Shown here: in pieces, positions 213-34,505 of the stretch
Layout: every line of letters begins with the position of its first letter
How positions within the stretch are numbered: the first letter of the stretch is position 1
Source of the DNA: Escherichia phage vB_EcoM-G3G7
Reading direction: 5' to 3' (one strand)
Length of the DNA: 64,000 bases
Sequence record: MZ234040.1
Program-made: the position numbers and the translations under genes
Notes under the pieces: model-generated
The model's input: the letters and a program-made list of their open reading frames with translations, nothing else
Told to the model about the DNA's origin: nothing
Database searches by the model: none

Positions 213-3200
213 TTAGAATTTAAAATATTTACTAATTTTGCGAGCAATTTTAGTAAAGAAAGGAGTTTTCAATTCTTTAATTTCTTCACTCATTTCCTGA
301 ATAGCCTTAATTAAAAGAGCATTCACAGCAGAGTTAGAAATTGTCAGAACATCAGATCCATCAACTTCAACTTTAGATACAGCTTCCGGTAATTCCTTTT
401 CAAGGTCCTGAGCAATAATACCAACTTCACGTTTAATAACACTACGGTCTTTAATAGACTTAACTTTATCGTAAATATAAACTTTCAGTCGACATACTTT
501 TTCAAGTGCTCCGTTTTCTAGCTCTTTTTTATTAATCTTAAGACGACCATCGGAACGAATATACACATCGTTAAAGTTACCATTACCAGGAGAATAGAAA
601 GTACCGTCGTAATGAAATTCAAATACCGCGTTAGGGTGTCCAGCCGCTGGTGATGCCTCCGCAGATCCAACACGAATAATTGCTTGCCCCCAATTGTTAG
701 GGACACGACGAATACCAAGATCGACGGCAGTTACAAACCCTTGATTGGTGATTACACTTCTTCCTTTGAGAATCGGATAATAACAATCCTGTGAAACATA
801 ACCATGATCGACGAATATTGGTGCTTCTACTCGCCATTGGTTGCCCCAATCACCCGGTTGTCTAGCAATCCATCCAGAACCGTTAATGTGTACACGATCG
901 CGGTTAACGTTAACCATTGCGATATTTTGTGGATTTAGCGAAATCTCACCATTGTTTGTGATATGTACTGCCGCCTGAGTAGCATAGCTATAAAATGCTA
1001 GCGAATTATCAGCACCACCCTTACCAATATACCAGTTACCACTCCCGTCTACGTCACCACGAATATGCAAAGCATTACCAGCAGTTGTTGATAATACAAT
1101 AGAATCACCCGGACGTTTAATAATCAATCTACCTTCGGATTCAATTTCACCAAAAAATTTAGTCTTAATTGCACCAGTCGCTAAAGTACGTTCAGTGGAA
1201 AAATGAACGCCTTTGCTGTCTTCTAACTGAATAATGTTATCGCGCGCATTATTACTATCACCCCAATGATTAAACCGGAAATAATCACGTGATTGCTTAC
1301 CACCCGCTTCAAACGTCAGCGTACCTTTACTTAAATTAACATCACCGCTAAAGGTAGCAGCAAGAGAATCACGTTCTAATTTTAAAACGTTAGCACCACT
1401 AGTACCACCTAAAGTAACATCACCAGTTCTCAATTCATAACGGAAAGGTCTATTTGTATTATAGTTTCCATTTTGATCATCTTCGTTGGTGGAAAGAATA
1501 TAAAGATTCTCTCCATAAGTACGGAAAATTGTACCAAAATTTCCGGCATACATACGGAATGCATTAGATGAGCGAAATTTAACTTCTGTTTTAAAAGTGG
1601 TAGTGTTATTAAGGTTAACAGTAGAGTTAAAATTGGTAGGAGCACCGAAGTTAACTGCGCCATTAAAATCTTGTTGAGCTGTCCATGTGTGGCGACCATC
1701 TTCAAGAACAACACGGCGGACTGTGCAAGTTCTATTTCCAGAATTACCGAACACACGAACGACAAAATAACGGTAGTTTGTCTGGGATACAGTACCGCGC
1801 CAAACCTGAACAGTACGCCCTGTGCTAGTGTGTTCGCTAGGACCAACGGAAAACATAACCAGGTTTCCGTCAATCGTCCCCCAATCCATATTTGCTGGCA
1901 TATTCTTTATTTTGTTCAAAGGAACACTAAACATACTACCAGGGACAAAATCAAAGGTTTGCCAATCTAGCTCCGCTAATTGAGTTTTAATACCACCCAT
2001 ACCCAAAGTAATTGGCAAAGAGTAAGATGTATATACTTCGTTCCATGTACCCCACGCGCCACCGGTATATGCACGCTCAAAAATACGATCGCGAGTAGTT
2101 GCACCCGTTCCGGCAGTAGTAAATTTTTGGAAAATAGCACCGCCAGAAGCACGCTGTTTAACTTCCAGCAAACCAACAATAACAGTCGGCAAACCTTCAC
2201 CGGTAGGACAGTTAATAACGGCATCAGTGCCTAAAATATTATATAACCCAGGAGTTTTAAAATCATTCAGATCTCCATCATAGAAAGTCGCTGGTGTGAC
2301 ATTACCGACTTGTTGCCACGGTCCCCATTTAGGCGCGGAAGCATCCCACGCGGCAGCAAGACAACGAGTATATACAACACCAAATCTGGTTGTATATCTT
2401 TGTGTACGAGAATAGTTTCCACCTTCATATACTTCCAAAAGACCTTGAGCTGACGACCCCTTTTCTGGGAAATTTCTGTCAAAGGTAGCAATGGAATTTG
2501 AACTATTTCGCCACAAACCAAAGTGTTCAGCGCCTCCTAGATCATTAAGATCAATTGTTGTTGACAGTGGACGAGTACCGGATTGAATATTCTGGGAAAT
2601 TTCTGTCAAAGGTAGCAATGGAATTTGAACTATTTCGCCACAAACCAAAGTGTTCAGCGCCTCCTAGATCATTAAGATCAATTGTTGTTGACAGTGGACG
2701 AGTACCGGATTGAATATTTCGCCACACACTCCACGGACCATTTACTCCGTTCCATGTAGCAGTCAAGGAACGAATATAAACATTTCCGTATCTAGTTGTA
2801 TATCTCTGAGTACCAGCAAATTGACCGGCCACAAATACTTCTAGCACACCTACAGCATTTTCTTCTGGAAATTTATTTGCTGGTTGAGCGTTGGTTGAAG
2901 TTGCTTTCGACCAAACTCCAAGATATTCTTCAACAGGCCCATACGTATCTAAATTAGCATCAGTAGGTAATTCGCCATTATTTTTTATAAATGTTGTGCT
3001 ATTGACATTTATGTCAGATGGAGTTAGCGTGATATCTTTTGACCCATCAAAGGATATACCATTAATTTTTCGTGCTGTTTTTAATTTCGTTGCAGTTGCA
3101 GCGTTACCTGTTAAATTTCCAATTATATTTCCATTAACAGTTAAAGAACCATCAATTGTTCCTCCATATTTTAAACCTAATTCTATAACACTACCTGAGT

Positions 3201-3327
3201 CATCTTTTGTGAAAATTGTTTTATCTTTTAAGTTTATAGCCAATTCACCTTCGGCTAATACTGAAGCTGCAGGACGTTGACCTGCAATTTTGCTTCTTTT
3301 AAATTGTATTTGTTTTAAAGTAGCCAT
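213..3327 (-). CDS. 37: long tail fiber distal subunit gp37; reading frame interrupted by a 127-bp tandem duplication (ORF pieces 2551..3327 and 213..2648)
   Basis: Two adjacent minus-strand ORFs (258 aa and 811 aa) in different frames, both containing [43 protein letters not shown]; removing one 127-bp copy gives one 995-codon ORF; position between gene 36 and gene 38. Confidence 0.85.
2465..2718. repeat. perfect direct tandem duplication, 2 x 127 bp (2465-2591, 2592-2718)
   Basis: Base-by-base comparison of the two copies shows identity over 127 bp, with 2 bp of junction microhomology. Confidence 0.95.
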
Positions 3328-27961: not shown

Positions 27962-28270
27962 ATGAAACTGACGACTGAACAAAAAGTAGCAATTCGTGAA
28001 ATTTTGAAAACTAAATTGTCCATGGGTGTTTCAAACGTAGTTTTTGAAAAGTCTGATGGTACTATTCGTGTTATGAAAGGTACTCGCGATGCTGACTTTA
28101 TGCCAACCATGCAAACTGGTAAATTGACTGAATCTACTCGGAAAGAATCTACTGATATGATTCCAGTATTTGATGTTGAACTTGGTGCATGGCGAGGTTT
28201 TTCTATTGACAAATTGATTTCCGTTAATGGTATGAAAGTTGAGCATTTGCTCCAATTTATTGGTAAATAA
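27962..28270 (+). CDS. small early protein (102 aa)
   Basis: ORF immediately following, ATG 27962. Confidence 0.5.
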   Translation: MKLTTEQKVAIREILKTKLSMGVSNVVFEKSDGTIRVMKGTRDADFMPTMQTGKLTESTRKESTDMIPVFDVELGAWRGFSIDKLISVNGMKVEHLLQFIGK

Positions 28271-28326
28271 ATGCTTTAAGAATTATTTGTTATTATTAAT
28301 TCATCTGTTAACAAAAAGGAAAAACG

Positions 28327-28662
28327 ATGTCTGAAGTACAACAGCTACCAATTCGTGCTGTCGGTGAATATGTTATTTTAGTTTCTGAACCTGCACAAGC
28401 CGGTGATGAAGAAGTTACAGAATCAGGACTTATTATCGGTAAACGTGTTCAAGGTGAAGTTCCTGAACTGTGTGTAGTTCACTCTGTCGGTCCTGATGTT
28501 CCTGAAGGTTTCTGCGAAGTTGGCGATTTGACTTCTCTTCCAGTTGGTCAAATTCGAAATGTTCCGCATCCTTTTGTAGCTCTGGGTCTTAAGCAGCCAA
28601 AAGAAATTAAACAAAAATTCGTTACCTGTCACTATAAAGCTATTCCGTGTCTTTATAAGTGA
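28327..28662 (+). CDS. 31: co-chaperonin gp31 (GroES analogue for capsid protein folding)
   Basis: 111-aa [64 protein letters not shown]... matches T4 gp31. Confidence 0.93.
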
Positions 28663-28670
28663 TATAAATA
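28663..28670 (+). promoter_or_regulatory. possible T4-type late promoter (TATAAATA) downstream of gene 31
   Basis: Exact TATAAATA on plus strand, about 140 nt upstream of rIII. Confidence 0.35.
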
Positions 28671-28809
28671 ATAATATGAATTGGGTGTCGGAATAATAAG
28701 TTAACCGAACAATTCTATGTGGTAGTCTACAACTGAGAGATCTGTCGAAAGAAGATGAAATTCAGAAGAACGTGACTACCGAGTTTTAATCTCTAACGAG
28801 AATTTTTAA

Positions 28810-29058
28810 ATGATTAAACAATTACAACACGCTCTTGAACTGCAACGAAACGCATGGAATAATGGTCACGAAAACTATGGCGCATCTATTGATGTTGAAG
28901 CCGAAGCTCTTGAAATCCTGCGTTATTTCAAACATCTGAATCCTGCTCAAACTGCATTAGCTGCTGAGCTTCAGGAAAAAGATGAACTTAAATATGCTAA
29001 GCCTCTGGCTTCTGCTGCACGAAAAGCAGTTCGTCACTTTGTGGTAACACTGAAGTAA
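28810..29058 (+). CDS. rIII: rIII lysis-inhibition accessory protein
   Basis: 82-aa ORF at the T4 rIII position between gene 31 and the 30.x cluster. Confidence 0.7.
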   Translation: MIKQLQHALELQRNAWNNGHENYGASIDVEAEALEILRYFKHLNPAQTALAAELQEKDELKYAKPLASAARKAVRHFVVTLK

Positions 29059-29456
29059 TTTATTGGAGAGTCACTGCCTTAGTGTGAAGTTAAAACGAGG
29101 AGCCGTCGAACTGTCTGATTAATGATTTGCGAATCATTATAGTTTTAAGACCCCGGCAGTTTTACGGTGTACCTCTTGAATGTTATTCTTATAGCGGCAA
29201 GTGCATGCTACCCCGAGGTGATGGCCAATCGGGAGTACGCCTCAAGGCCTATATATCCATCAGTATATATCTTATCCTCGAGAAATCGAACCCGGAACCT
29301 TTAAGCTAACGGTGTGCAACAGATAAGAGCTATAAGGTATGATGACGGGTTTATGGTTATCCTGGTCGTTAAATATCAAAAAACCTATGTTCCCCTTGAG
29401 GGCTTGCGCAGGCAATGCCAATAAGTCCTGCATTTTCATTTAAAAGAGAATTTATA

Positions 29457-29633
29457 ATGGCAAAACAAGCTAAAGCAAAGAAAGCAGTTGAAAAGAAAGT
29501 TGGTGATTCTAAACGCGCTGGCTACAAGCGTGGGTCGAACTCTCGTATCAATCAAACTGTTGAGAAGATCATGCGCCGAGCACGTGCGGTTCTTCGAGAT
29601 GATGCTTCTCGTTTTGGTAAGCAGAAAGCATAA
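29457..29633 (+). CDS. small highly basic protein (MAKQAKAKKAVEKKVGDSKRAGYKRGSN...), unknown function
   Basis: 58-aa ORF (alternative upstream ATG at 29415 gives 72 aa); followed by a strong terminator. Confidence 0.5.
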   Translation: MAKQAKAKKAVEKKVGDSKRAGYKRGSNSRINQTVEKIMRRARAVLRDDASRFGKQKA

Positions 29634-29638
29634 GTTGA

Positions 29639-29667
29639 GGACTCCTTCGGGAGTCCTTTTTTATTTT
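29639..29667 (+). terminator. intrinsic terminator
   Basis: GGACTCC-TTCG-GGAGTCC hairpin followed by TTTTTTATTTT. Confidence 0.85.
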
Positions 29668-29686
29668 CCAAAGATTGCATAAAGTT

Positions 29687-29716
29687 GTTTACAGTATGGT
29701 TCCTTTGTGATAGTAT
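29687..29716 (+). promoter_or_regulatory. T4-type early promoter
   Basis: GTTTAC at 29687-29692, 18-nt spacer with TGTGA, TAGTAT at 29711-29716. Confidence 0.55.
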
Positions 29717-29743
29717 TATCTTACACAAACAAAGGAGAATAAA

Positions 29744-30076
29744 ATGAAAACGATTAATCTGAACGCTGCAGTTAAAACTAAATGCTTCAATGGTAAATAT
29801 GATGAAACTATGTGGTTCTTAATGGCAGTTGAAGGTGATATTATTGAAGTAGAAACAACAGAAGGTATGGGAACAGATTTCACCTTTACAATTCAAGTTC
29901 ATAATTTCTTTACTGGTTGGATTTATGAATTGAATACAGTAATCGTTGGAAAAATTGAACAAAATGAATTAGGTGAATGGTATTATGTTACAGCTCGCCA
30001 ACGTGCCGAACGCTTAATTGAGAAGATGAAAAAAGTTGGTAAACTTGACATGCAGCATTGGAAAGTAGTAAAATAA
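29744..30076 (+). CDS. early protein, unknown function (110 aa)
   Basis: AAGGAGAATAAAATG context. Confidence 0.6.
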   Translation: MKTINLNAAVKTKCFNGKYDETMWFLMAVEGDIIEVETTEGMGTDFTFTIQVHNFFTGWIYELNTVIVGKIEQNELGEWYYVTARQRAERLIEKMKKVGKLDMQHWKVVK

Positions 30077-30078
30077 TT

Positions 30079-30108
30079 GTTTACTTTGGTACAGGATATG
30101 ATATTATA
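30079..30108 (+). promoter_or_regulatory. T4-type early promoter
   Basis: GTTTAC at 30079-30084 and TATTAT/ATTATA around 30102-30108. Confidence 0.5.
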
Positions 30109-30143
30109 TACCTGTACCGCAATTAAACATCTTGGAGAATAAA

Positions 30144-30509
30144 ATGAACTACATCAACTTTGAACGTAAATATGTTTCTAATGGTATTGCAGGTTCTATT
30201 GATACTATTTGCCTTTGGAAACATCAAAATGGATCAGTATGCGAAATTGAGCAGTATATGACTCCTAATTACGTTTATATGCGATTTGAAAACGGTATCA
30301 CGGTTTCAATCACGATGGAAGGTTCCAACTTTAAAATCGCTCTGGATGATGATTTCCGTGAACGCGATTTAGGGACTCATCCTTGCTGGAATGGCGTTAA
30401 TCGCAAGCTTTTGGTTAAAACTTGGATTCGTCATATTCTGAGTAACAGAGCTAAACCTGAGCATCTTGAAGCAATCTTTGATGTAGTTCTTAACGAATTT
30501 GATATTTAA
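30144..30509 (+). CDS. early protein, unknown function (121 aa)
   Basis: TTGGAGAATAAAATG context; ORF-track start at 30132 is a TTG. Confidence 0.6.
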   Translation: MNYINFERKYVSNGIAGSIDTICLWKHQNGSVCEIEQYMTPNYVYMRFENGITVSITMEGSNFKIALDDDFRERDLGTHPCWNGVNRKLLVKTWIRHILSNRAKPEHLEAIFDVVLNEFDI

Positions 30510-30549
30510 AATAAATGAGGGGCTTTGGCCCCTTACTGAGGAAAATGTT

Positions 30550-30837
30550 ATGTTTATGACTACTTATTTTGATACCCGTAAAAACTTCTGCGAAGTAGTT
30601 TTCTCAAAGGCGCCTAAAGACCTTCCTGCACATTTGCAACCTACTAGCGAATCGATTAAAAACTACGTTAATGTAGTCTGCCCTTTAGAGTTCCGTACTG
30701 TAAATGGGCGCGATACTTTAGCTATCACTAAACTCAATCGCGAAATTGACATTGATCCCTCAATTGCACGTGAAATTAATAGTTCTGATATTAATGGCGG
30801 TAATGTTAAATCGCACGGTTTTCAGATGAGGTTTTAA
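30550..30837 (+). CDS. early protein, unknown function (about 95 aa)
   Basis: GAGG upstream of ATG 30550; preceded by hairpin AGGGGC-TTTG-GCCCCT. Confidence 0.5.
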   Translation: MFMTTYFDTRKNFCEVVFSKAPKDLPAHLQPTSESIKNYVNVVCPLEFRTVNGRDTLAITKLNREIDIDPSIAREINSSDINGGNVKSHGFQMRF

Positions 30838-31034
30838 TGAAATTCTTTTTAGGTCAAACTGTTGAATTAAAGGGAGTTGGTATACCTGGATTAATTTCTA
30901 AGGTTCTACCTCCATTTAAATGGAGTGGTATTCAAATAAAAGAGGCTTATATTGTTTCCTGGGTAGATGGAAATGAAGACCTTCGTATGGGTGATGAATT
31001 ATCTCCTATCTACGGATTAAAGGAAATAGTATGA
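30837..31034 (+). CDS. small early protein (65 aa)
   Basis: ATGA overlap with the upstream stop. Confidence 0.5.
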   Translation: MKFFLGQTVELKGVGIPGLISKVLPPFKWSGIQIKEAYIVSWVDGNEDLRMGDELSPIYGLKEIV

Positions 31035-31237
31035 ATATAATTAATAAGATTTTTGGAATTCAGTACATTAAGGTCACATATAAAGTAACAGATAAAAATC
31101 CATATACTGATGAACACGAAGAACCACAAGTTAAGTCTATTATATTAGAAAAGGACCCTAACTGGCCAGTTGAATTTCGTCTTCCTTGCTATGGTCATTG
31201 GGCTGATGTTGAAATTATAAGCATTGAAAATGTCTGA
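31031..31237 (+). CDS. small early protein (68 aa)
   Basis: ATGA overlap with the upstream stop. Confidence 0.5.
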   Translation: MNIINKIFGIQYIKVTYKVTDKNPYTDEHEEPQVKSIILEKDPNWPVEFRLPCYGHWADVEIISIENV

Positions 31238-31688
31238 GTTAGAGATTAGAAGCAATTTTAGGTGGCCATCATGTGCATTAAGTAATTTCGCCCATTGGCC
31301 TTTCGTTATGGATGGCATTCAATTTGGAGGTCTTGAAGGATTCCTCCAAGGATGCAAAGTGAAAAATGTTGAACAACAACGTCGTATATTTGGGTTATCC
31401 GGGCTTGCCGCCCAACAAGCTGGAAGGTCTTATGCAAGAGCTCAGGACCGTGGGACCCTCTTCTGGCTTGGAGTTCCATTTTCAAGATACTCCCCGGCGT
31501 GGAAAGAATTATACACAAATGCATATTTTGAAGCAGCGATCCAAAACAAGGGCTTCCGTGATGCATTACAAGCCTCGAAAGGAAAAGTTTTGAAGCACAG
31601 CATGGCTAGTGGTCTAACAAAAGATGATACAATACTAACCGAAGCTGAATTTATTGATGTGTTAAACCTATTAAGAGACTCTCTATGA
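31224..31688 (+). CDS. YbiA/NADAR-family-like protein (putative N-glycosidase / ADP-ribose processing domain)
   Basis: 154-aa ORF; LSNFAHWPFVMDGIQFGGLEGFLQGCKV resembles the signature SNFA.WP...DG......EH.FQA.K of E. coli YbiA / DUF1768 proteins (recalled, not searched). Confidence 0.5.
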   Translation: MKMSELEIRSNFRWPSCALSNFAHWPFVMDGIQFGGLEGFLQGCKVKNVEQQRRIFGLSGLAAQQAGRSYARAQDRGTLFWLGVPFSRYSPAWKELYTNAYFEAAIQNKGFRDALQASKGKVLKHSMASGLTKDDTILTEAEFIDVLNLLRDSL

Positions 31689-32539
31689 AGCCTACTATTT
31701 TAACTGATATTGATGGAGTATGTTTAAGCTGGCAATCAGGCCTTCCTTATTTTGCTCAGAAATATAATCTTCCGTTAGAACATATTTTAAAAATGATCCA
31801 GGATGAGAAATTTATTTCTCCTGGTAAACTATTTAATTGCGATGAAGAACTTGGCGTTAAGCTAATTGAAAAATACAATCGTTCGGATTTTATTCGATAC
31901 TTGTCTCCATATAAAGATGCCCTGTGTGTAATTAACAAATTAAAAGAAGATTATAATTTTGTAGCTGTTACAGCATTGGGTGATTCTATTGACGCTCTGC
32001 TGAATCGTCAATTTAATTTGAATGCTCTTTTTCCTGGTGCCTTCTCAGAAGTACTGATGTGTGGTCATGATTCTTCAAAAGAAGAGTTGTTCAAAAAGGC
32101 AAAAGAAAAATATAACGTAATTTGTTATATTGACGATCTCGCTCACCACTGCGATCACGCAAGTGAAATATTAAATGTTCCTGTTTATTGGATGGCTCGA
32201 GGGGAACGTGACAGTATTCCAAAAACTGCACAGCGAGTTTATACATGGAATGATGTAGAGAATAAGCTTTTTCCATCGAAGGAAAATAAAGAAAGTTTTG
32301 ATAGTGAAAAAGTTATAAAAGATGTAATTGAGAAGATGATTAAAAACGATTCTTTTCGTTGGAACACTACTTGGAGAACTCCTGGATTTAATCCTTATAA
32401 TCCATATCATCCATATTATACACACTCACATCAGATGCATCCATTCCATACGTGGAGTTATATTAAGCCTGGCGACGCAGGGTATTTTAATAGACTTACT
32501 AGTGGTAGTGGTGATAATATTTTCCAAGGAGCATTCTAA
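31685..32539 (+). CDS. HAD-superfamily hydrolase-like protein with Pro/Tyr/His-rich C-terminal tail
   Basis: 284-aa ORF; N-terminal ILTDIDGV (HAD motif I DxDG); C-terminal PGFNPYNPYHPYYTHSHQMHPFHTW low-complexity region. Confidence 0.5.
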   Translation: MKPTILTDIDGVCLSWQSGLPYFAQKYNLPLEHILKMIQDEKFISPGKLFNCDEELGVKLIEKYNRSDFIRYLSPYKDALCVINKLKEDYNFVAVTALGDSIDALLNRQFNLNALFPGAFSEVLMCGHDSSKEELFKKAKEKYNVICYIDDLAHHCDHASEILNVPVYWMARGERDSIPKTAQRVYTWNDVENKLFPSKENKESFDSEKVIKDVIEKMIKNDSFRWNTTWRTPGFNPYNPYHPYYTHSHQMHPFHTWSYIKPGDAGYFNRLTSGSGDNIFQGAF

Positions 32540-32808
32540 TGTTTGTTGTTCACACTATTTATGAAAATGAAGGTAATACTACACGTGATTACGGTCACGT
32601 AAATCAATTTTTTAGATGCAATCCAGAATTCCGAGCTCAAAAAGACGAACGAATTTTTAAAAAATGTGTAGAGCAAGGTTTCATTTACGTCAAGCACTGG
32701 ATGCAAGGAAATAAAGTTAGAACCACGTACCACAGGTCTTTGACTGAGCTTAATGATGAATTGATTTATAATAGAGCTGTAAACCAAACTCTAAAGGATG
32801 AACAATGA
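32539..32808 (+). CDS. small early protein (89 aa), upstream of DNA ligase
   Basis: ORF with TAATG coupling to the upstream stop and ATGA coupling to gene 30. Confidence 0.5.
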   Translation: MFVVHTIYENEGNTTRDYGHVNQFFRCNPEFRAQKDERIFKKCVEQGFIYVKHWMQGNKVRTTYHRSLTELNDELIYNRAVNQTLKDEQ

Positions 32809-34268
32809 TTCTTAAAATTCTGAACGAAATAGCATCTATTGGTTCAACTAAGCAGAAGCAAGCAATTCTTGAAAAGAATAAAGATAATGAATTGCTTAAA
32901 CGAGTATATCGTCTGACTTATTCTCGTGGGTTACAGTATTATATCAAGAAATGGCCTAAACCTGGTATTGCTACCCAGAGTTTTGGAATGTTGACTCTTA
33001 CTGATATGCTTGACTTCATTGAATTCACGTTAGCTACTCGGAAATTGACTGGAAATGCGGCAATTGAAGAATTAATTGGTTATATTACTGACGGTAAAAA
33101 AGATGATGTTGAAGTTTTGCGTCGAGTGATGATGCGAGACCTTGAATGTGGTGCTTCAGTATCTATTGCAAACAAAGTTTGGCCAGGTTTAATTCCTGAA
33201 CAACCTCAAATGCTCGCAAGTTCTTATGATGAAAAAGGCATTAATAAGAATATCAAATTTCCAGCCTTTGCCCAGTTAAAAGCTGATGGAGCTCGGTGCT
33301 TTGCCGAAGTCAGAGGTGATGAATTAGATGACGTTCGTCTTTTATCACGAGCTGGTAATGAATATCTAGGATTAGATCTTCTTAAGGAAGAATTAATCAA
33401 AATGACCGCTGAAGCCCGCCAGATTCATCCAGAAGGCGTGTTAATTGATGGCGAATTGGTATACCATGAGCAAGTTGAAAAGGAGCCAGAAGGCCTAGAT
33501 TTTCTTTTTGATGCTTATCCTGAAAACAGTAAAGCTAAAGAATTCGCCGAAGTAGCTGAATCACGTACTGCATCTAATGGCATCGCCAATAAATCTTTAA
33601 AGGGAACCATTTCTGAAAAAGAAGCACAATGCATGAAGTTTCAGGTCTGGGATTATGTACCGTTGGTAGAAATATACGGTCTTCCTGCATTTCGTTTGAA
33701 ATATGATGTACGTTTTTCTAAACTAGAACAAATGACATCAGGCTATGATAAAGTAATTTTAATTGAAAACCAGGTAGTAAATAACCTAGACGAAGCCAAG
33801 GTAATTTATAAAAAGTATATTGACCAAGGTCTTGAAGGTATTATTCTCAAAAATATCGATGGATTATGGGAAAATGCTCGTTCAAAAAATCTCTATAAAT
33901 TTAAAGAAGTAATTGATGTTGATTTAAAAATTGTAGGAATTTATCCTCACCGTAAAGACCCTACTAAAGCAGGTGGATTTATTCTTGAGTCAGAGTGTGG
34001 AAAAATTAAAGTAAATGCTGGTTCAGGCTTAAAAGATAAAGCCGGTGTAAAATCGCATGAACTTGACCGTACTCGCATTATGGAAAACCAAAATTATTAT
34101 ATTGGAAAAATTCTAGAGTGCGAATGCAACGGTTGGTTAAAATCTGATGGCCGCACTGATTACGTTAAATTATTTCTTCCGATTGCGATTCGTTTGCGTG
34201 AAGATAAAACTAAAGCTAATACATTCGAGGATGTATTTGGTGATTTTCATGAGGTAACTGGTTTATGA
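32805..34268 (+). CDS. 30: ATP-dependent DNA ligase
   Basis: 487-aa ORF MILKILNEIASIGSTKQKQAILEKNKDNELLKRVYRLTYSRGLQYYIKKWPKPG... with adenylation lysine motif FAQLKADGARC; matches T4 DNA ligase. Confidence 0.95.
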   Translation: MILKILNEIASIGSTKQKQAILEKNKDNELLKRVYRLTYSRGLQYYIKKWPKPGIATQSFGMLTLTDMLDFIEFTLATRKLTGNAAIEELIGYITDGKKDDVEVLRRVMMRDLECGASVSIANKVWPGLIPEQPQMLASSYDEKGINKNIKFPAFAQLKADGARCFAEVRGDELDDVRLLSRAGNEYLGLDLLKEELIKMTAEARQIHPEGVLIDGELVYHEQVEKEPEGLDFLFDAYPENSKAKEFAEVAESRTASNGIANKSLKGTISEKEAQCMKFQVWDYVPLVEIYGLPAFRLKYDVRFSKLEQMTSGYDKVILIENQVVNNLDEAKVIYKKYIDQGLEGIILKNIDGLWENARSKNLYKFKEVIDVDLKIVGIYPHRKDPTKAGGFILESECGKIKVNAGSGLKDKAGVKSHELDRTRIMENQNYYIGKILECECNGWLKSDGRTDYVKLFLPIAIRLREDKTKANTFEDVFGDFHEVTGL

Positions 34269-34453
34269 AAGCTTACTTAGAAACAATTGTCATTGCTCAA
34301 AAAGAAGGTGGAGATGTTTCTACTTCTGTATCACAAGTCATTCTCGAATTTGTAGATGCATACGCTTATAATAAATTCACAGAAACATTTGATGCCTATG
34401 AAAAAGGTCCAAAGTTTGAAATATACCGTACTCTCTTACCACTAGATTATTAA
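34265..34453 (+). CDS. small protein (62 aa) downstream of ligase
   Basis: ATGA overlap with the gene 30 stop; followed by a terminator. Confidence 0.5.
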   Translation: MKAYLETIVIAQKEGGDVSTSVSQVILEFVDAYAYNKFTETFDAYEKGPKFEIYRTLLPLDY

Positions 34454-34475
34454 AGGCCTTCGGGCCTTTAATTTT
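34453..34475 (+). terminator. intrinsic terminator
   Basis: AAGGCC-TTCG-GGCCTT hairpin followed by TAATTTT. Confidence 0.7.
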
Positions 34476-34505
34476 ATAAATAGAATAAACACTAGAGAGG
34501 CTATG

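What the first reader, a model, noticed from the sequence alone, without database searches (positions are those of the whole stretch)
29744..32808. Hypervariable early cluster between rIII and DNA ligase
Eight or nine ORFs, several with ATGA-coupled starts, are driven by two early promoters (29687 and 30079). They include the NADAR-like and HAD-like proteins above and otherwise have no assigned function. This is the most likely place in the window for uncharacterised host-interaction genes.
Basis: inference. Interest (0 to 1): 0.45.

Follow-up and report, generated by a model that had tools for sequence, protein, structure and literature searches.

The report
T4 30.1–30.9 early gene cluster
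This is the ordinary, already catalogued T4 early gene block 30.8–30.1 (one member is the known anti-DarTG1 enzyme AdfN), but just upstream of it sits an apparently undescribed 145-nt structured RNA that T4 itself lacks at this locus.

Summary
The ORFs and both early promoters are real. The window is a Tequatrovirus, and 29744-32808 is the T4 block 30.8-30.7-30.6-30.5-30.4-30.3-30.2-30.1. Order and content match T4, with 92-99% amino-acid identity. It is therefore not hypervariable within the genus.

It is plastic between genera. The rIII-to-ligase interval ranges from 1.7 to 5.0 kb. 30.8 and 30.7 come and go as promoter-plus-stem-loop cassettes.

Gene 30.3 is AdfN, a published NADAR ADP-ribosylglycohydrolase whose deletion makes T4 and T2 unable to plate on DarTG1 hosts. 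The copy here is full length and keeps E36 and K43.

Gene 30.2 is confirmed as a HAD-fold phosphatase. All four motifs are conserved, and the best structural matches are 5'(3')-deoxyribonucleotidases. The "ninth ORF", 30.3', is not under selection. The other six proteins have no detectable relatives outside T4-like phages.

The one real structural difference from T4 lies outside the flagged coordinates. A 145-nt RNA element at 29190-29334 (+), between rIII and 30.9, has 44 base pairs, 19 of them with compensatory changes. It occurs in about 400 phage records across many Tevenvirinae genera. It was not found in bacterial genomes and matches no Rfam family.

The parts
28722..28779 (+). 58-nt conserved leader hairpin ('module B') between the late promoter TATAAATA (28663) and the rIII start. 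Context, outside the finding.
   Evidence: In Jiaodavirus, Moonvirus and Karamvirus-type loci the homologous hairpin lies upstream of 30.9 instead. RNAalifold gives 16 pairs, 6 with compensatory changes. Late promoter.
28810..29058 (+). rIII (lysis-inhibition accessory protein), left border of the interval
   Evidence: 100% amino-acid identity to T4 rIII
29059..29184 (+). 'up' noncoding module of the rIII-30.9 spacer. Structured, and also present in T4.
   Evidence: 96% identical to T4. RNAalifold on 15 loci gives 29 pairs, 6 with compensatory changes.
29190..29334 (+). 145-nt structured RNA element ('el'). Absent from this locus in T4.
   Evidence: Clean 153-nt indel against T4. Covariance-model hit of 177 bits. 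98-99% of cells paired, with 16/43 and 19/44 pairs compensatory against 4.8 and 6.6 in shuffles. 407 phage records. No Rfam, tRNA, E. coli or bacterial-genome match.
29338..29456 (+). 'dn' noncoding module: hairpin GACGGG..GGTTATCC..GTCGTTAAATA, hairpin CCCCTTGAGGG followed by CTTGCG, hairpin GCAGG..CCTGC, then the 30.9 ribosome-binding site
   Evidence: 99% identical to T4. The sub-modules recur in a different order in other genera.
29457..29633 (+). gene 30.9: 58-aa, very basic protein
   Evidence: 100% identical to T4 gp30.9. Homologues occur only in T4-like phages and are 63-100% identical across genera. No Pfam or PHROG family.
29637..29658 (+). Intrinsic-terminator-like hairpin after 30.9, followed by a T run
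   Evidence: 9-bp stem, 5 GC pairs, then TTTTATTTT. Perfect 8-nt arms.
29687..29716 (+). T4-type early promoter 1 (GTTTACA-N17-TAGTAT), serving 30.8
   Evidence: Fits the TTTACW-N17-TAYWAT consensus for promoter-early stem-loop motifs (PeSLs) in the T4/PST pair, with one mismatch (PMC4122927).
29701..29736 (+). Perfect 8-nt inverted repeat bracketing the -10 box. Its 3' arm (ACAAAGGA) covers the 30.8 Shine-Dalgarno sequence.
   Evidence: sequence.
29744..30076 (+). gene 30.8 (110 aa)
   Evidence: PF06019 Phage_30_8, E=2e-59. 99% identical to T4. Missing from T2, BCPEco_001 and L009.
30079..30107 (+). T4-type early promoter 2 (GTTTACT-N16-TATTAT), serving 30.7 and downstream genes
30088..30118 (+). 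Perfect 8-nt inverted repeat (GGTACAGG/CCTGTACC) bracketing the -10 box of promoter 2
30144..30509 (+). gene 30.7 (121 aa)
   Evidence: PF06919 Phage_T4_Gp30_7, E=2e-52. 97.5% identical to T4. Missing from BCPEco_001 and L009.
30518..30533 (+). GC-rich hairpin (AGGGGC-TTTG-GCCCCT) between 30.7 and 30.6. No T run on the + strand.
   Evidence: One search reports it on the - strand. Sequence.
30550..30837 (+). gene 30.6 (95 aa)
   Evidence: phrog_2153, E=1e-50. 95.8% identical to T4.
30837..31034 (+). gene 30.5 (65 aa)
   Evidence: phrog_1690. 98.5% identical to T4.
31031..31237 (+). gene 30.4 (68 aa)
   Evidence: phrog_2042. 97.1% identical to T4.
31230..31688 (+). gene 30.3 = adfN: NADAR ADP-ribosylglycohydrolase, an anti-DarTG1 counter-defence enzyme
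   Evidence: PF08010, E=7e-70. 150/152 identical to T4 AdfN. Full length, with E36 and K43 present. Function from PMC11825919.
31366..31593 (+). 30.3': an internal out-of-frame ORF annotated in T4. Probably not a gene.
   Evidence: In the three closest alleles all 13 substitutions are synonymous in the 30.3 frame and non-synonymous in the 30.3' frame. Over all ten alleles the counts are 79 of 96 synonymous in 30.3 and 87 of 96 non-synonymous in 30.3'. The start codon is lost in L007. Internal stops occur in T2 and L065.
31685..32539 (+). gene 30.2 (284 aa): HAD-superfamily phosphatase core (residues 1-200) plus a disordered, P/Y/H-rich variable tail
   Evidence: AF2 pLDDT above 90 for 1-200. 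Foldseek top hits are 5'(3')-deoxyribonucleotidases 2jao, 2i7d and 3bwv, E about 1e-8. D8, D10, G11 and K132 are invariant and T96, D150 and D151 nearly invariant in 50 homologues. Always next to the ligase.
32539..32808 (+). gene 30.1 (89 aa, DUF3045)
   Evidence: PF11243, E=3e-64. Homologues only in T4-like phages. AF2 model with pLDDT 80 has no PDB fold match.
32805..34268 (+). gene 30: ATP-dependent DNA ligase, right border, start overlapped (ATGA) with the 30.1 stop
   Evidence: 99.4% identical to T4 gp30.

Best explanation
The flagged stretch is this Tequatrovirus's copy of the T4 early accessory block 30.8-30.1. Gene 30.9 lies just upstream.

**Transcription and translation.** The block is transcribed rightward from two T4-type early promoters, plus read-through from rIII and 30.9. 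Each promoter's -10 box is enclosed by an 8-bp inverted repeat. From 30.6 onward the genes are translated as a tightly coupled string that runs straight into the DNA ligase gene.

**The two enzymes.**
- 30.3 is AdfN, a NADAR glycohydrolase. It strips the ADP-ribose that the host toxin DarT1 puts on guanine in phage DNA, so the phage can replicate in DarTG1 hosts. This is shown in the literature for the 98.7%-identical T4 protein and is inferred for this copy.
- 30.2 is a capped HAD phosphatase whose closest structural matches are 5'(3')-deoxyribonucleotidases. It is most likely a nucleotide or other small phospho-ester phosphatase. The fold and motifs are shown here; the substrate is inferred.

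**The rest.** 30.9, 30.8, 30.7, 30.6, 30.5, 30.4 and 30.1 are small proteins found only in T4-like phages, with no detectable fold or family link. By analogy with AdfN and other T4 early genes they are most plausibly host-takeover or counter-defence factors. That is inference only.

**Variation.** The block is stable within Tequatrovirus. Between genera it is remodelled, mainly by gain and loss of promoter-plus-stem-loop (PeSL-type) single-gene cassettes such as 30.8 and 30.7.
For: **Identity with T4.** Order and content are the same as NC_000866. Per-gene amino-acid identity is 91.6-99.1%. The region is 100% identical to vB_EcoM-CHD2BS1 and 7 other records, and 471 records cover at least 80% of it.

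**Families.** PF06019, PF06919, PF08010, PF11243 and six PHROGs.

**Promoters.** (6 observed against 0.53 expected, all on the + strand). They fit the PeSL consensus of PMC4122927. Inverted repeats lie around both -10 boxes.

**AdfN.** PMC11825919 reports that deleting adfN in T4 or T2 abolishes plating on DarTG1, and that E36 and K43 are catalytic. Both residues and the full-length C-terminus are present here.

**30.2.** AF2 model, Foldseek, invariant motif residues. It sits immediately upstream of the ligase in 37 of 37 loci.

**Cassette loss.** 30.8 and 30.7 are absent in L009 and BCPEco_001. 30.8 is absent in T2.

**Plasticity between genera.**
Against: - No transcription data were examined. 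The promoters are consensus matches conserved with T4, and their activity was not measured here.
- The AdfN activity of this allele (H22 for Q, M124 for I) is inferred, not tested.
- The Pfam NADAR model (PF08719) does not hit 30.3 even at E up to 10. The NADAR assignment rests on the published structure comparison.
- For 30.2, HMM evidence is weak (PF25109 HAD_PNKP at E=0.17). TM-scores to known HADs are moderate (0.64-0.69 on the target), at 12-20% identity.
- A host-takeover role for the seven small proteins has no direct support.
Confidence: 0.88

Rival explanations
1. This is a hypervariable, lineage-specific island. Its uncharacterised ORFs are host-range or anti-defence determinants that differ from phage to phage.
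For: - One member (AdfN) is a proven counter-defence gene.
- Between genera the interval varies from 1.7 to 5.0 kb. 30.6, 30.4, 30.3 and 30.1 are patchy.
- 30.8 and 30.7 are lost in some Tequatroviruses.
- L010 carries a 37%-identical 30.8 allele.
Against: - In this phage the content equals T4 gene for gene, at 92-99% identity.
- By megablast, this 30.8 allele is in 441 records, 30.7 in 662, and 30.3 in 645.
- Nothing in the block is lineage-specific.
- No PADLOC, NCBIfam or PDB similarity suggests a defence-related function for the small proteins.
Confidence: 0.25
2. 30.3, 30.2, 30.1 and the ligase form one functional DNA-repair pathway. AdfN removes ADP-ribose from DNA. 30.2 dephosphorylates a product or a damaged DNA end. 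The ligase seals.
For: - Translational coupling is unbroken from 30.4 to gene 30.
- 30.2 abuts the ligase in all 37 loci examined.
- In the most distant loci (L035-L041) the whole interval is just 30.3 + 30.2 + ligase.
- There is a weak HMM hint to the polynucleotide-kinase phosphatase domain (E=0.17).
Against: - AdfN expressed alone rescues RB69 on DarTG1.
- Many genera keep 30.2 without 30.3.
- 30.2 has a helical C1-type cap and matches small-molecule nucleotidases best. The capless DNA-end phosphatases are not among the top matches.
Confidence: 0.15
3. What deserves attention in the rIII-ligase interval is not the protein cluster but the noncoding rIII-30.9 spacer. The spacer is a mosaic of exchangeable structured RNA modules. 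One of them is a 145-nt RNA (29190-29334) that acts as a stable or regulatory RNA. Candidate roles are a ligand- or protein-binding leader, a ribozyme, or a decoy.
For: - Covariation: 16/43 and 19/44 pairs have compensatory changes against 4.8 and 6.6 in shuffles, and at most 4 in slid controls. 98-99% of cells are paired.
- G-U pairs favour the + strand.
- Frame-breaking indels exclude coding.
- The element is 80-96% identical across genera in which the flanks do not align.
- The same site has three alleles: el, an unrelated filler of about 50 nt, or nothing.
- Modules change order between genera.
- No Rfam family matches.
Against: - The function is entirely unknown.
- T4 and T2 do without it, so it is dispensable in the laboratory.
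- The sequences are phylogenetically related, and one alignment was fitted to the model, which inflates the pair counts.
- It could already be listed in a large unnamed catalogue of candidate phage RNAs that I could not search by sequence.
Confidence: 0.6

Closest known systems
Phage T4 genes 30.9-30.1 (NC_000866, 127205-130540)
   Same: Same genes, order, strand, overlaps and promoters. 91.6-100% amino-acid identity.
   Different: - There are 153 extra bases between rIII and 30.9.
- The 30.2 tail has indels: 284 aa here against 278 aa in T4.
- Otherwise only scattered substitutions.
AdfN (T4 gp30.3), a NADAR ADP-ribosylglycohydrolase that counters DarTG1 (Johannesman et al. 2025, PMC11825919)
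   Same: 150 of 152 residues are identical. E36 and K43 are present, and so is the C-terminal helix that is truncated in RB69.
   Different: Two substitutions (H22 for Q, M124 for I). Activity of this allele was not tested.
5'(3')-deoxyribonucleotidases cdN and mdN, and bacterial deoxyribonucleotidase-like HAD proteins (PDB 2jao, 2i7d, 3bwv)
   Same: Same HAD Rossmannoid core with a helical cap, and the same DxD / T / K / DD motif set.
   Different: - Only 17-20% identity and moderate TM-scores.
- 30.2 has an extra disordered C-terminal tail of about 85 aa.
- No Pfam HAD model reaches threshold.
- The substrate is unknown.
PeSL (promoter-early stem-loop) mobile regulatory cassettes of T4-type phages (Arbiol 2010, PMC2839356; Comeau 2014, PMC4122927)
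   Same: A TTTACW-type early promoter combined with a stem-loop, sitting at the borders of genes (30.8, 30.7) that are present or absent between close relatives.
   Different: - Neither paper mentions this locus.
- Here the inverted repeats bracket the -10 box, in addition to the upstream terminator hairpin.
- Recombination at these sites is inferred, not shown.
T4 small stable RNAs rnaC and rnaD (species 1 and 2), compared with the 145-nt RNA element only
   Same: Phage-encoded noncoding RNAs of 120-140 nt with unknown function, in a T-even genome.
   Different: - No homology. The covariance model of the element scores at most 7.7 bits over the T4 tRNA/rnaC/rnaD region.
- The genomic location is different.
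- The element is not next to tRNA genes in Tevenvirinae.

Membership tests
T4 30.x early gene block | Same gene families in the same order between rIII and gene 30 | tested here: met
   T4 annotation. Pairwise identities of 92-100%. Pfam PF06019, PF06919, PF08010 and PF11243.
NADAR superfamily / AdfN | Catalytic Glu and Lys (E36 and K43 in AdfN-T4) and an intact C-terminal helix | tested here: met
   The alignment to T4 gp30.3 shows E36, K43 and the full 152 aa. The roles of these residues come from PMC11825919.
NADAR superfamily / AdfN | Match to the Pfam NADAR model (PF08719) | tested here: not met
NADAR superfamily / AdfN | Removes ADP-ribose from guanine in DNA and rescues the phage on DarTG1 | not testable with these tools
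   Shown experimentally for the T4 allele.
HAD (haloacid dehalogenase-like) phosphatase superfamily, for 30.2 | Four catalytic motifs: DxD, T/S, K, DD | tested here: met
   D8, D10, G11 and K132 are invariant. T96, D150 and D151 are at least 90% conserved in 50 homologues.
HAD (haloacid dehalogenase-like) phosphatase superfamily, for 30.2 | Rossmannoid HAD fold with a cap domain | tested here: met
   AF2 model with pLDDT above 90 over residues 1-200 and a helical insert at 16-86. 108 PDB matches at E<=1e-3; all 50 listed are HAD-family entries or proteins engineered on HAD scaffolds.
HAD (haloacid dehalogenase-like) phosphatase superfamily, for 30.2 | Significant match to a curated HAD sequence model | tested here: not met
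   The best Pfam hit is HAD_PNKP at E=0.17, 12.5 bits against a cutoff of 27.6. NCBIfam gave nothing relevant.
5'(3')-deoxyribonucleotidase subfamily, for 30.2 | dNMP phosphatase activity and substrate-pocket residues | not tested
   Only fold-level resemblance. Pocket residues were not compared.
PeSL cassette | Early promoter TTTACW-N17-TAYWAT next to a stem-loop | tested here: met
   29688 TTTACA-17-TAGTAT has one mismatch. 30080 TTTACT-16-TATTAT has a spacer one base short. Hairpins at 29637-58, 29701-36 and 30088-118.
PeSL cassette | Marks the borders of indels between closely related genomes | tested here: met
   30.8 and 30.7 are absent in BCPEco_001 and L009. 30.8 is absent in T2. Exact breakpoints were not mapped.
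Any Rfam 15 family, tRNA or tmRNA (for the RNA at 29190-29334) | Covariance-model or ARAGORN match | tested here: not met
   No hit over the element at E up to 10. No tRNA or tmRNA in the window.

The most novel reading that the evidence does not exclude
The rIII-30.9 spacer of Tevenvirinae is a swap site for structured RNA modules. The 145-nt element at 29190-29334 is a previously undescribed RNA class restricted to T4-like phages. It has 44 base pairs, invariant unpaired stretches such as GCUAACGGUGUGCAACAGA, and a GAAA tetraloop. It is kept at 80-96% identity across genera whose neighbouring genes have diverged to 50-75%, yet it is cleanly missing from this locus in T4 and T2. Such conservation of unpaired nucleotides is typical of a ligand- or protein-binding RNA or a ribozyme. 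It could regulate the highly conserved basic protein 30.9, or act in trans on a host factor.
Probability: 0.5. Interest if true: 0.65.

Novelty: already known. Interest (0 to 1): 0.35.

Why it matters
**The flagged cluster.** Little changes. It is the textbook T4 30.x block, and its one understood member (AdfN) was published in 2025. Three points are useful:
- This phage should be DarTG1-resistant.
- 30.2 can now be treated as a real HAD phosphatase. It is nearly universal and always next to the ligase.
- 30.3' should stop being annotated as a gene.

**The RNA just upstream.** This matters more.
- T4 has been the reference genome for seventy years, and it happens to lack the element at this locus. 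That may be why it has gone unnoticed.
- It is present in roughly 400 sequenced phages, including therapeutic Klebsiella, Enterobacter and E. coli phages.
- Natural el+ and el- relatives that are 96-99% identical across this locus exist, so its function is directly testable.

Tried and rejected
- **Rfam.** cmscan over 28000-34500 and over the spacer alone gave only sub-threshold chance hits: Atu_C8 on the 30.9 terminator, plus miRNA and snoRNA models.
- **tRNA.** ARAGORN found no tRNA or tmRNA in the window. A T-arm-like GGTTCGA on the minus strand is not a tRNA.
- **T4 stable RNAs.** The element's covariance model found no homology in the T4 rnaC/rnaD/tRNA region.
- **Host origin of the element.** The invariant 19-mer has 0 exact hits in 185k bacterial and archaeal genomes. 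blastn found nothing in 5,426 E. coli genomes.
- **Chance hit.** One metagenome hit (L078) is a chance 19-mer inside a phage structural gene, not an element.
- **Idea dropped.** I first thought that 30.9 is more conserved where the element is present. Moonvirus-type loci have the element at 94% identity but 30.9 at only about 52%.
- **Defence-related similarity.** PADLOC, NCBIfam and PDB sequence searches on all nine proteins gave nothing useful.
- **30.1.** The AF2 model (pLDDT 80) has no PDB fold match; the best E-value is 0.5.
- **Single-sequence folding.** Folding the element or the whole spacer alone is uninformative (z = -1.4 to -1.6). Only the comparative analysis shows the structure.
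- **Annotation artefact.** The label '1,4-alpha-glucan branching enzyme' seen in many records belongs to the 58-68-aa 30.9 homologue and is an artefact.

Full report
**What the window is.**
- The 4.3-kb stretch around the finding is 100% identical to Escherichia phage vB_EcoM-CHD2BS1 and seven sister isolates.
- It is 96-99% identical to hundreds of Tequatrovirus genomes. 993 phage records match, and 471 of them cover at least 80% of the region.
- Relative to T4 (NC_000866) the window is reverse-complemented.
- T4's annotation gives the order 31, rIII, 30.9, 30.8, 30.7, 30.6, 30.5, 30.4, 30.3 (with internal 30.3'), 30.2, 30.1, 30 (ligase), alt.1, alt.

**Checking the observation.**
- The eight + strand ORFs in 29744-32808 are exactly 30.8 to 30.1.
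- Four hit T4-specific Pfam families: PF06019, PF06919, PF08010 and PF11243. All eight hit PHROGs.
- Reading the junctions gives three ATGA overlaps (30.5/30.4, 30.3/30.2, 30.1/ligase). It also gives two TAATG overlaps (30.6/30.5, 30.2/30.1) and one 8-nt overlap (30.4/30.3).
Both sites have TG upstream of the -10.
- The pattern GTTTAC-N15-18-TANWAT occurs six times in the 64-kb window, all on the + strand, against 0.53 expected from shuffles.
- Both sites fit the early-promoter half of the composite promoter-early stem-loop (PeSL) motif described for the T4/PST pair, TTTACW-N17-TAYWAT (PMC4122927).
- Each -10 box is bracketed by a perfect 8-nt inverted repeat: 29701-08 with 29729-36, and 30088-95 with 30111-18.
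- A terminator-like hairpin follows 30.9 at 29637-58.
- The 3' arm of the first repeat covers the 30.8 Shine-Dalgarno sequence. Read-through transcripts could therefore mask it, while transcripts started at the promoter could not. That is my inference, by analogy with known T4 cases.

**Is the cluster hypervariable?**

*Within the genus, no.*
- Amino-acid identity to T4 is 99.1% (30.8), 97.5% (30.7), 95.8% (30.6), 98.5% (30.5), 97.1% (30.4), 98.7% (30.3), 91.6% (30.2) and 98.9% (30.1). Gene order and content are identical.
- Only the low-complexity C-terminal tail of 30.2 carries indels.
- By megablast, this 30.8 allele is in 441 records, 30.7 in 662, 30.5-30.4 in 449 and 30.3 in 645.

*Between genera, yes.*
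- In 37 loci with rIII 54-100% identical, the rIII-to-ligase interval ranges from 1.7 to 5.0 kb.
- 30.2 is always present and always next to the ligase.
- 30.7, 30.8 and 30.5 are widespread. 30.6, 30.4, 30.3 and 30.1 are patchy.
- The most distant loci keep only 30.3 + 30.2.

*Exceptions inside Tequatrovirus.*
- BCPEco_001 and one IMG/VR genome lack 30.8 and 30.7.
- T2 lacks 30.8 and has two tiny ORFs in place of 30.5/30.4.
- These are the promoter-flanked single-gene units expected of PeSL cassettes.

**Gene 30.3.**
- The literature search shows it is no longer uncharacterised. Johannesman et al. (PMC11825919) renamed it adfN.
- They showed that deleting it from T4 or T2 abolishes plaque formation on DarTG1 cells.
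- They showed that the protein removes ADP-ribose from DarT1-modified DNA, and that E36 and K43 matter.
- They also showed that the RB69 allele is inactive because a frameshift removes the last helix.
- The copy here is 150/152 identical to T4's. It is full length and keeps E36 and K43.
- Pfam's NADAR model does not hit it. The family assignment rests on the published structure comparison.

**ORF 30.3'.**
- Comparing ten alleles, substitutions in the overlap are almost all synonymous in the 30.3 frame and non-synonymous in the 30.3' frame.
- The 30.3' start codon is ACG in one genome. T2 and a Mosigvirus carry internal stops.
- It shows no coding constraint and is probably not a gene.

**Gene 30.2.**
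- HMM libraries barely see it: HAD_PNKP at E=0.17, and nothing in PDB by sequence.
- A database search found 100 homologues, all from T4-like phages. They share a core of about 200 aa and have variable tails.
- In a 50-sequence alignment D8, D10, G11 and K132 are invariant. T96, D150 and D151 are nearly so. These are the four HAD motifs.
- The AlphaFold model is confident for residues 1-200 and disordered beyond about 225.
- Foldseek against the PDB returns 108 matches at E<=1e-3. All 50 listed are HAD-family entries or proteins engineered on HAD scaffolds, led by cytosolic and mitochondrial 5'(3')-deoxyribonucleotidases.
- 'HAD-like' is therefore confirmed. A nucleotidase-type substrate is the best guess.

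**The other proteins.**
- 30.9, 30.8, 30.7, 30.6, 30.5, 30.4 and 30.1 have no hits in NCBIfam or PADLOC.
- 30.1 and 30.9 have homologues only in T4-like phages.
- A reasonable 30.1 model has no PDB fold match.
- 30.9 is a 58-aa, very basic protein that is unusually well conserved: 72-90% identity in Serratia, Pectobacterium, Edwardsiella and Klebsiella phages.

**What actually differs from T4.**
- The two-piece BLAST matches of T4-type genomes pointed to a gap. Alignment shows 153 extra bases in the rIII-30.9 spacer.
- That segment alone is 80-96% identical in Jiaodavirus, Slopekvirus, Moonvirus, Karamvirus, Kanagawavirus, Dhakavirus, an Aeromonas phage and Erwinia phage Cronus. In all, 407 records carry it.
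- In the loci examined it lies between rIII and the 30.9 homologue, while the flanking spacer does not align between those groups.
- Alignment of 21 distinct copies gives an RNAalifold structure of 43 pairs, 16 with compensatory changes.
- On that independent MAFFT alignment, 98.3% of cells are paired. The 16 compensatory pairs compare with 4.8 ± 1.5 in column shuffles and at most 4 when partners are slid.
- A model-fitted alignment of 35 copies gives 19 of 44 pairs.
- Frequent G-U pairs favour the + strand. One-, two-, four- and seven-base indels rule out coding.
- No Rfam family, tRNA or tmRNA matches, and there is no similarity to T4 rnaC or rnaD.
- The invariant 19-mer is absent from 185k bacterial and archaeal genomes. 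blastn finds nothing in 5,426 E. coli genomes.
- IMG/VR and metagenome hits are all T4-like contigs, apart from one chance match.

**The insertion site and the wider spacer.**
- The site has three alleles in near-identical backgrounds: the element, an unrelated filler of about 50 nt, or nothing, as in T4.
- The rest of the spacer is also built from conserved hairpin modules that change order between genera.
- One 58-nt hairpin lies upstream of rIII in Tequatrovirus but upstream of 30.9 elsewhere. It has 6 of 16 pairs compensatory.
- The 'up' module, which T4 shares, has 6 of 29 pairs compensatory.
- I found no paper describing any of this.
- The function is unknown. The element is dispensable, since T4 and T2 lack it at this locus.

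**Verdict.**
It is an early accessory block containing a proven counter-defence gene, but it is not hypervariable or lineage-specific in this phage, and its best candidate is already characterised.
- As flagged, the finding is already known and of low interest.
- The adjacent structured RNA is the item worth following up.

Noticed in passing
window 29190-29334 (+): 145-nt structured RNA between rIII and 30.9. It has 44 base pairs, 19 with compensatory changes. It is present in 407 phage records across many Tevenvirinae genera and is absent from this locus in T4 and T2. It matches no Rfam family and was not found in bacterial genomes.
   Followed up: yes
window 29184/29338 junction; loci L005, L007, L010, L011, L016, L018, L020: The same spacer position holds one of three alleles in near-identical genomes. 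They are the 145-nt RNA, an unrelated filler of about 50 nt (tactatcacgcgtcagaaaaaggttatctgtctaagtcgtgg...), or nothing (T4, L008).
   Followed up: partly
window 28722-28779 (+); L003 about 3161-3218 and equivalent positions in L023, L025-L028, L031-L033, L039: A 58-nt leader hairpin with 6 of 16 compensatory pairs lies upstream of rIII in Tequatrovirus. In Jiaodavirus, Moonvirus and Karamvirus-type loci it lies upstream of 30.9 instead. A structured leader module has changed its client gene.
   Followed up: partly
window 29059-29184 (+): The 'up' part of the rIII-30.9 spacer, which T4 also has, folds into a conserved helix set (29 pairs, 6 compensatory). It contains two GGAG motifs just after the rIII stop.
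   Followed up: partly
L002 3001-3346 (Escherichia phage phiWec187, Justusliebigvirus); also L043, L044: An unrelated myovirus genus carries, inside its tRNA gene cluster, a roughly 93-98% identical permuted copy of the T4-type rIII-30.9 spacer. It consists of up + dn, without the 145-nt RNA, fused to the last ~40 codons of rIII. This is evidence of lateral transfer of this noncoding region between co-infecting phage families.
   Followed up: partly
window 31366-31593 (+): The T4-annotated internal ORF 30.3' shows no coding constraint. Its substitutions are nearly all non-synonymous in its own frame and synonymous in the 30.3 frame. The start codon is lost in one genome, and stops occur in T2 and a Mosigvirus.
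   Followed up: yes
window 29457-29633 (+): gp30.9 is a 58-aa, highly basic protein conserved at 72-90% identity across distant T4-like genera, more than rIII or gp31. Many GenBank records mislabel it '1,4-alpha-glucan branching enzyme'.
   Followed up: partly
window 32290-32536 (+), C-terminus of 30.2: A disordered tail of about 85 aa rich in Pro, Tyr, His and Asn (…NPYNPYHPYYTHSHQMHPFHTW…). It carries indels even between Tequatroviruses, and the tail region beyond the ~200-aa core differs widely in length and sequence among homologues.
   Followed up: no
window 9088, 12974, 13706, 25995 (+): Four further matches to the T4 early-promoter pattern GTTTAC-N15-18-TANWAT, all on the + strand. They mark other early transcription units in the window.
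   Followed up: no
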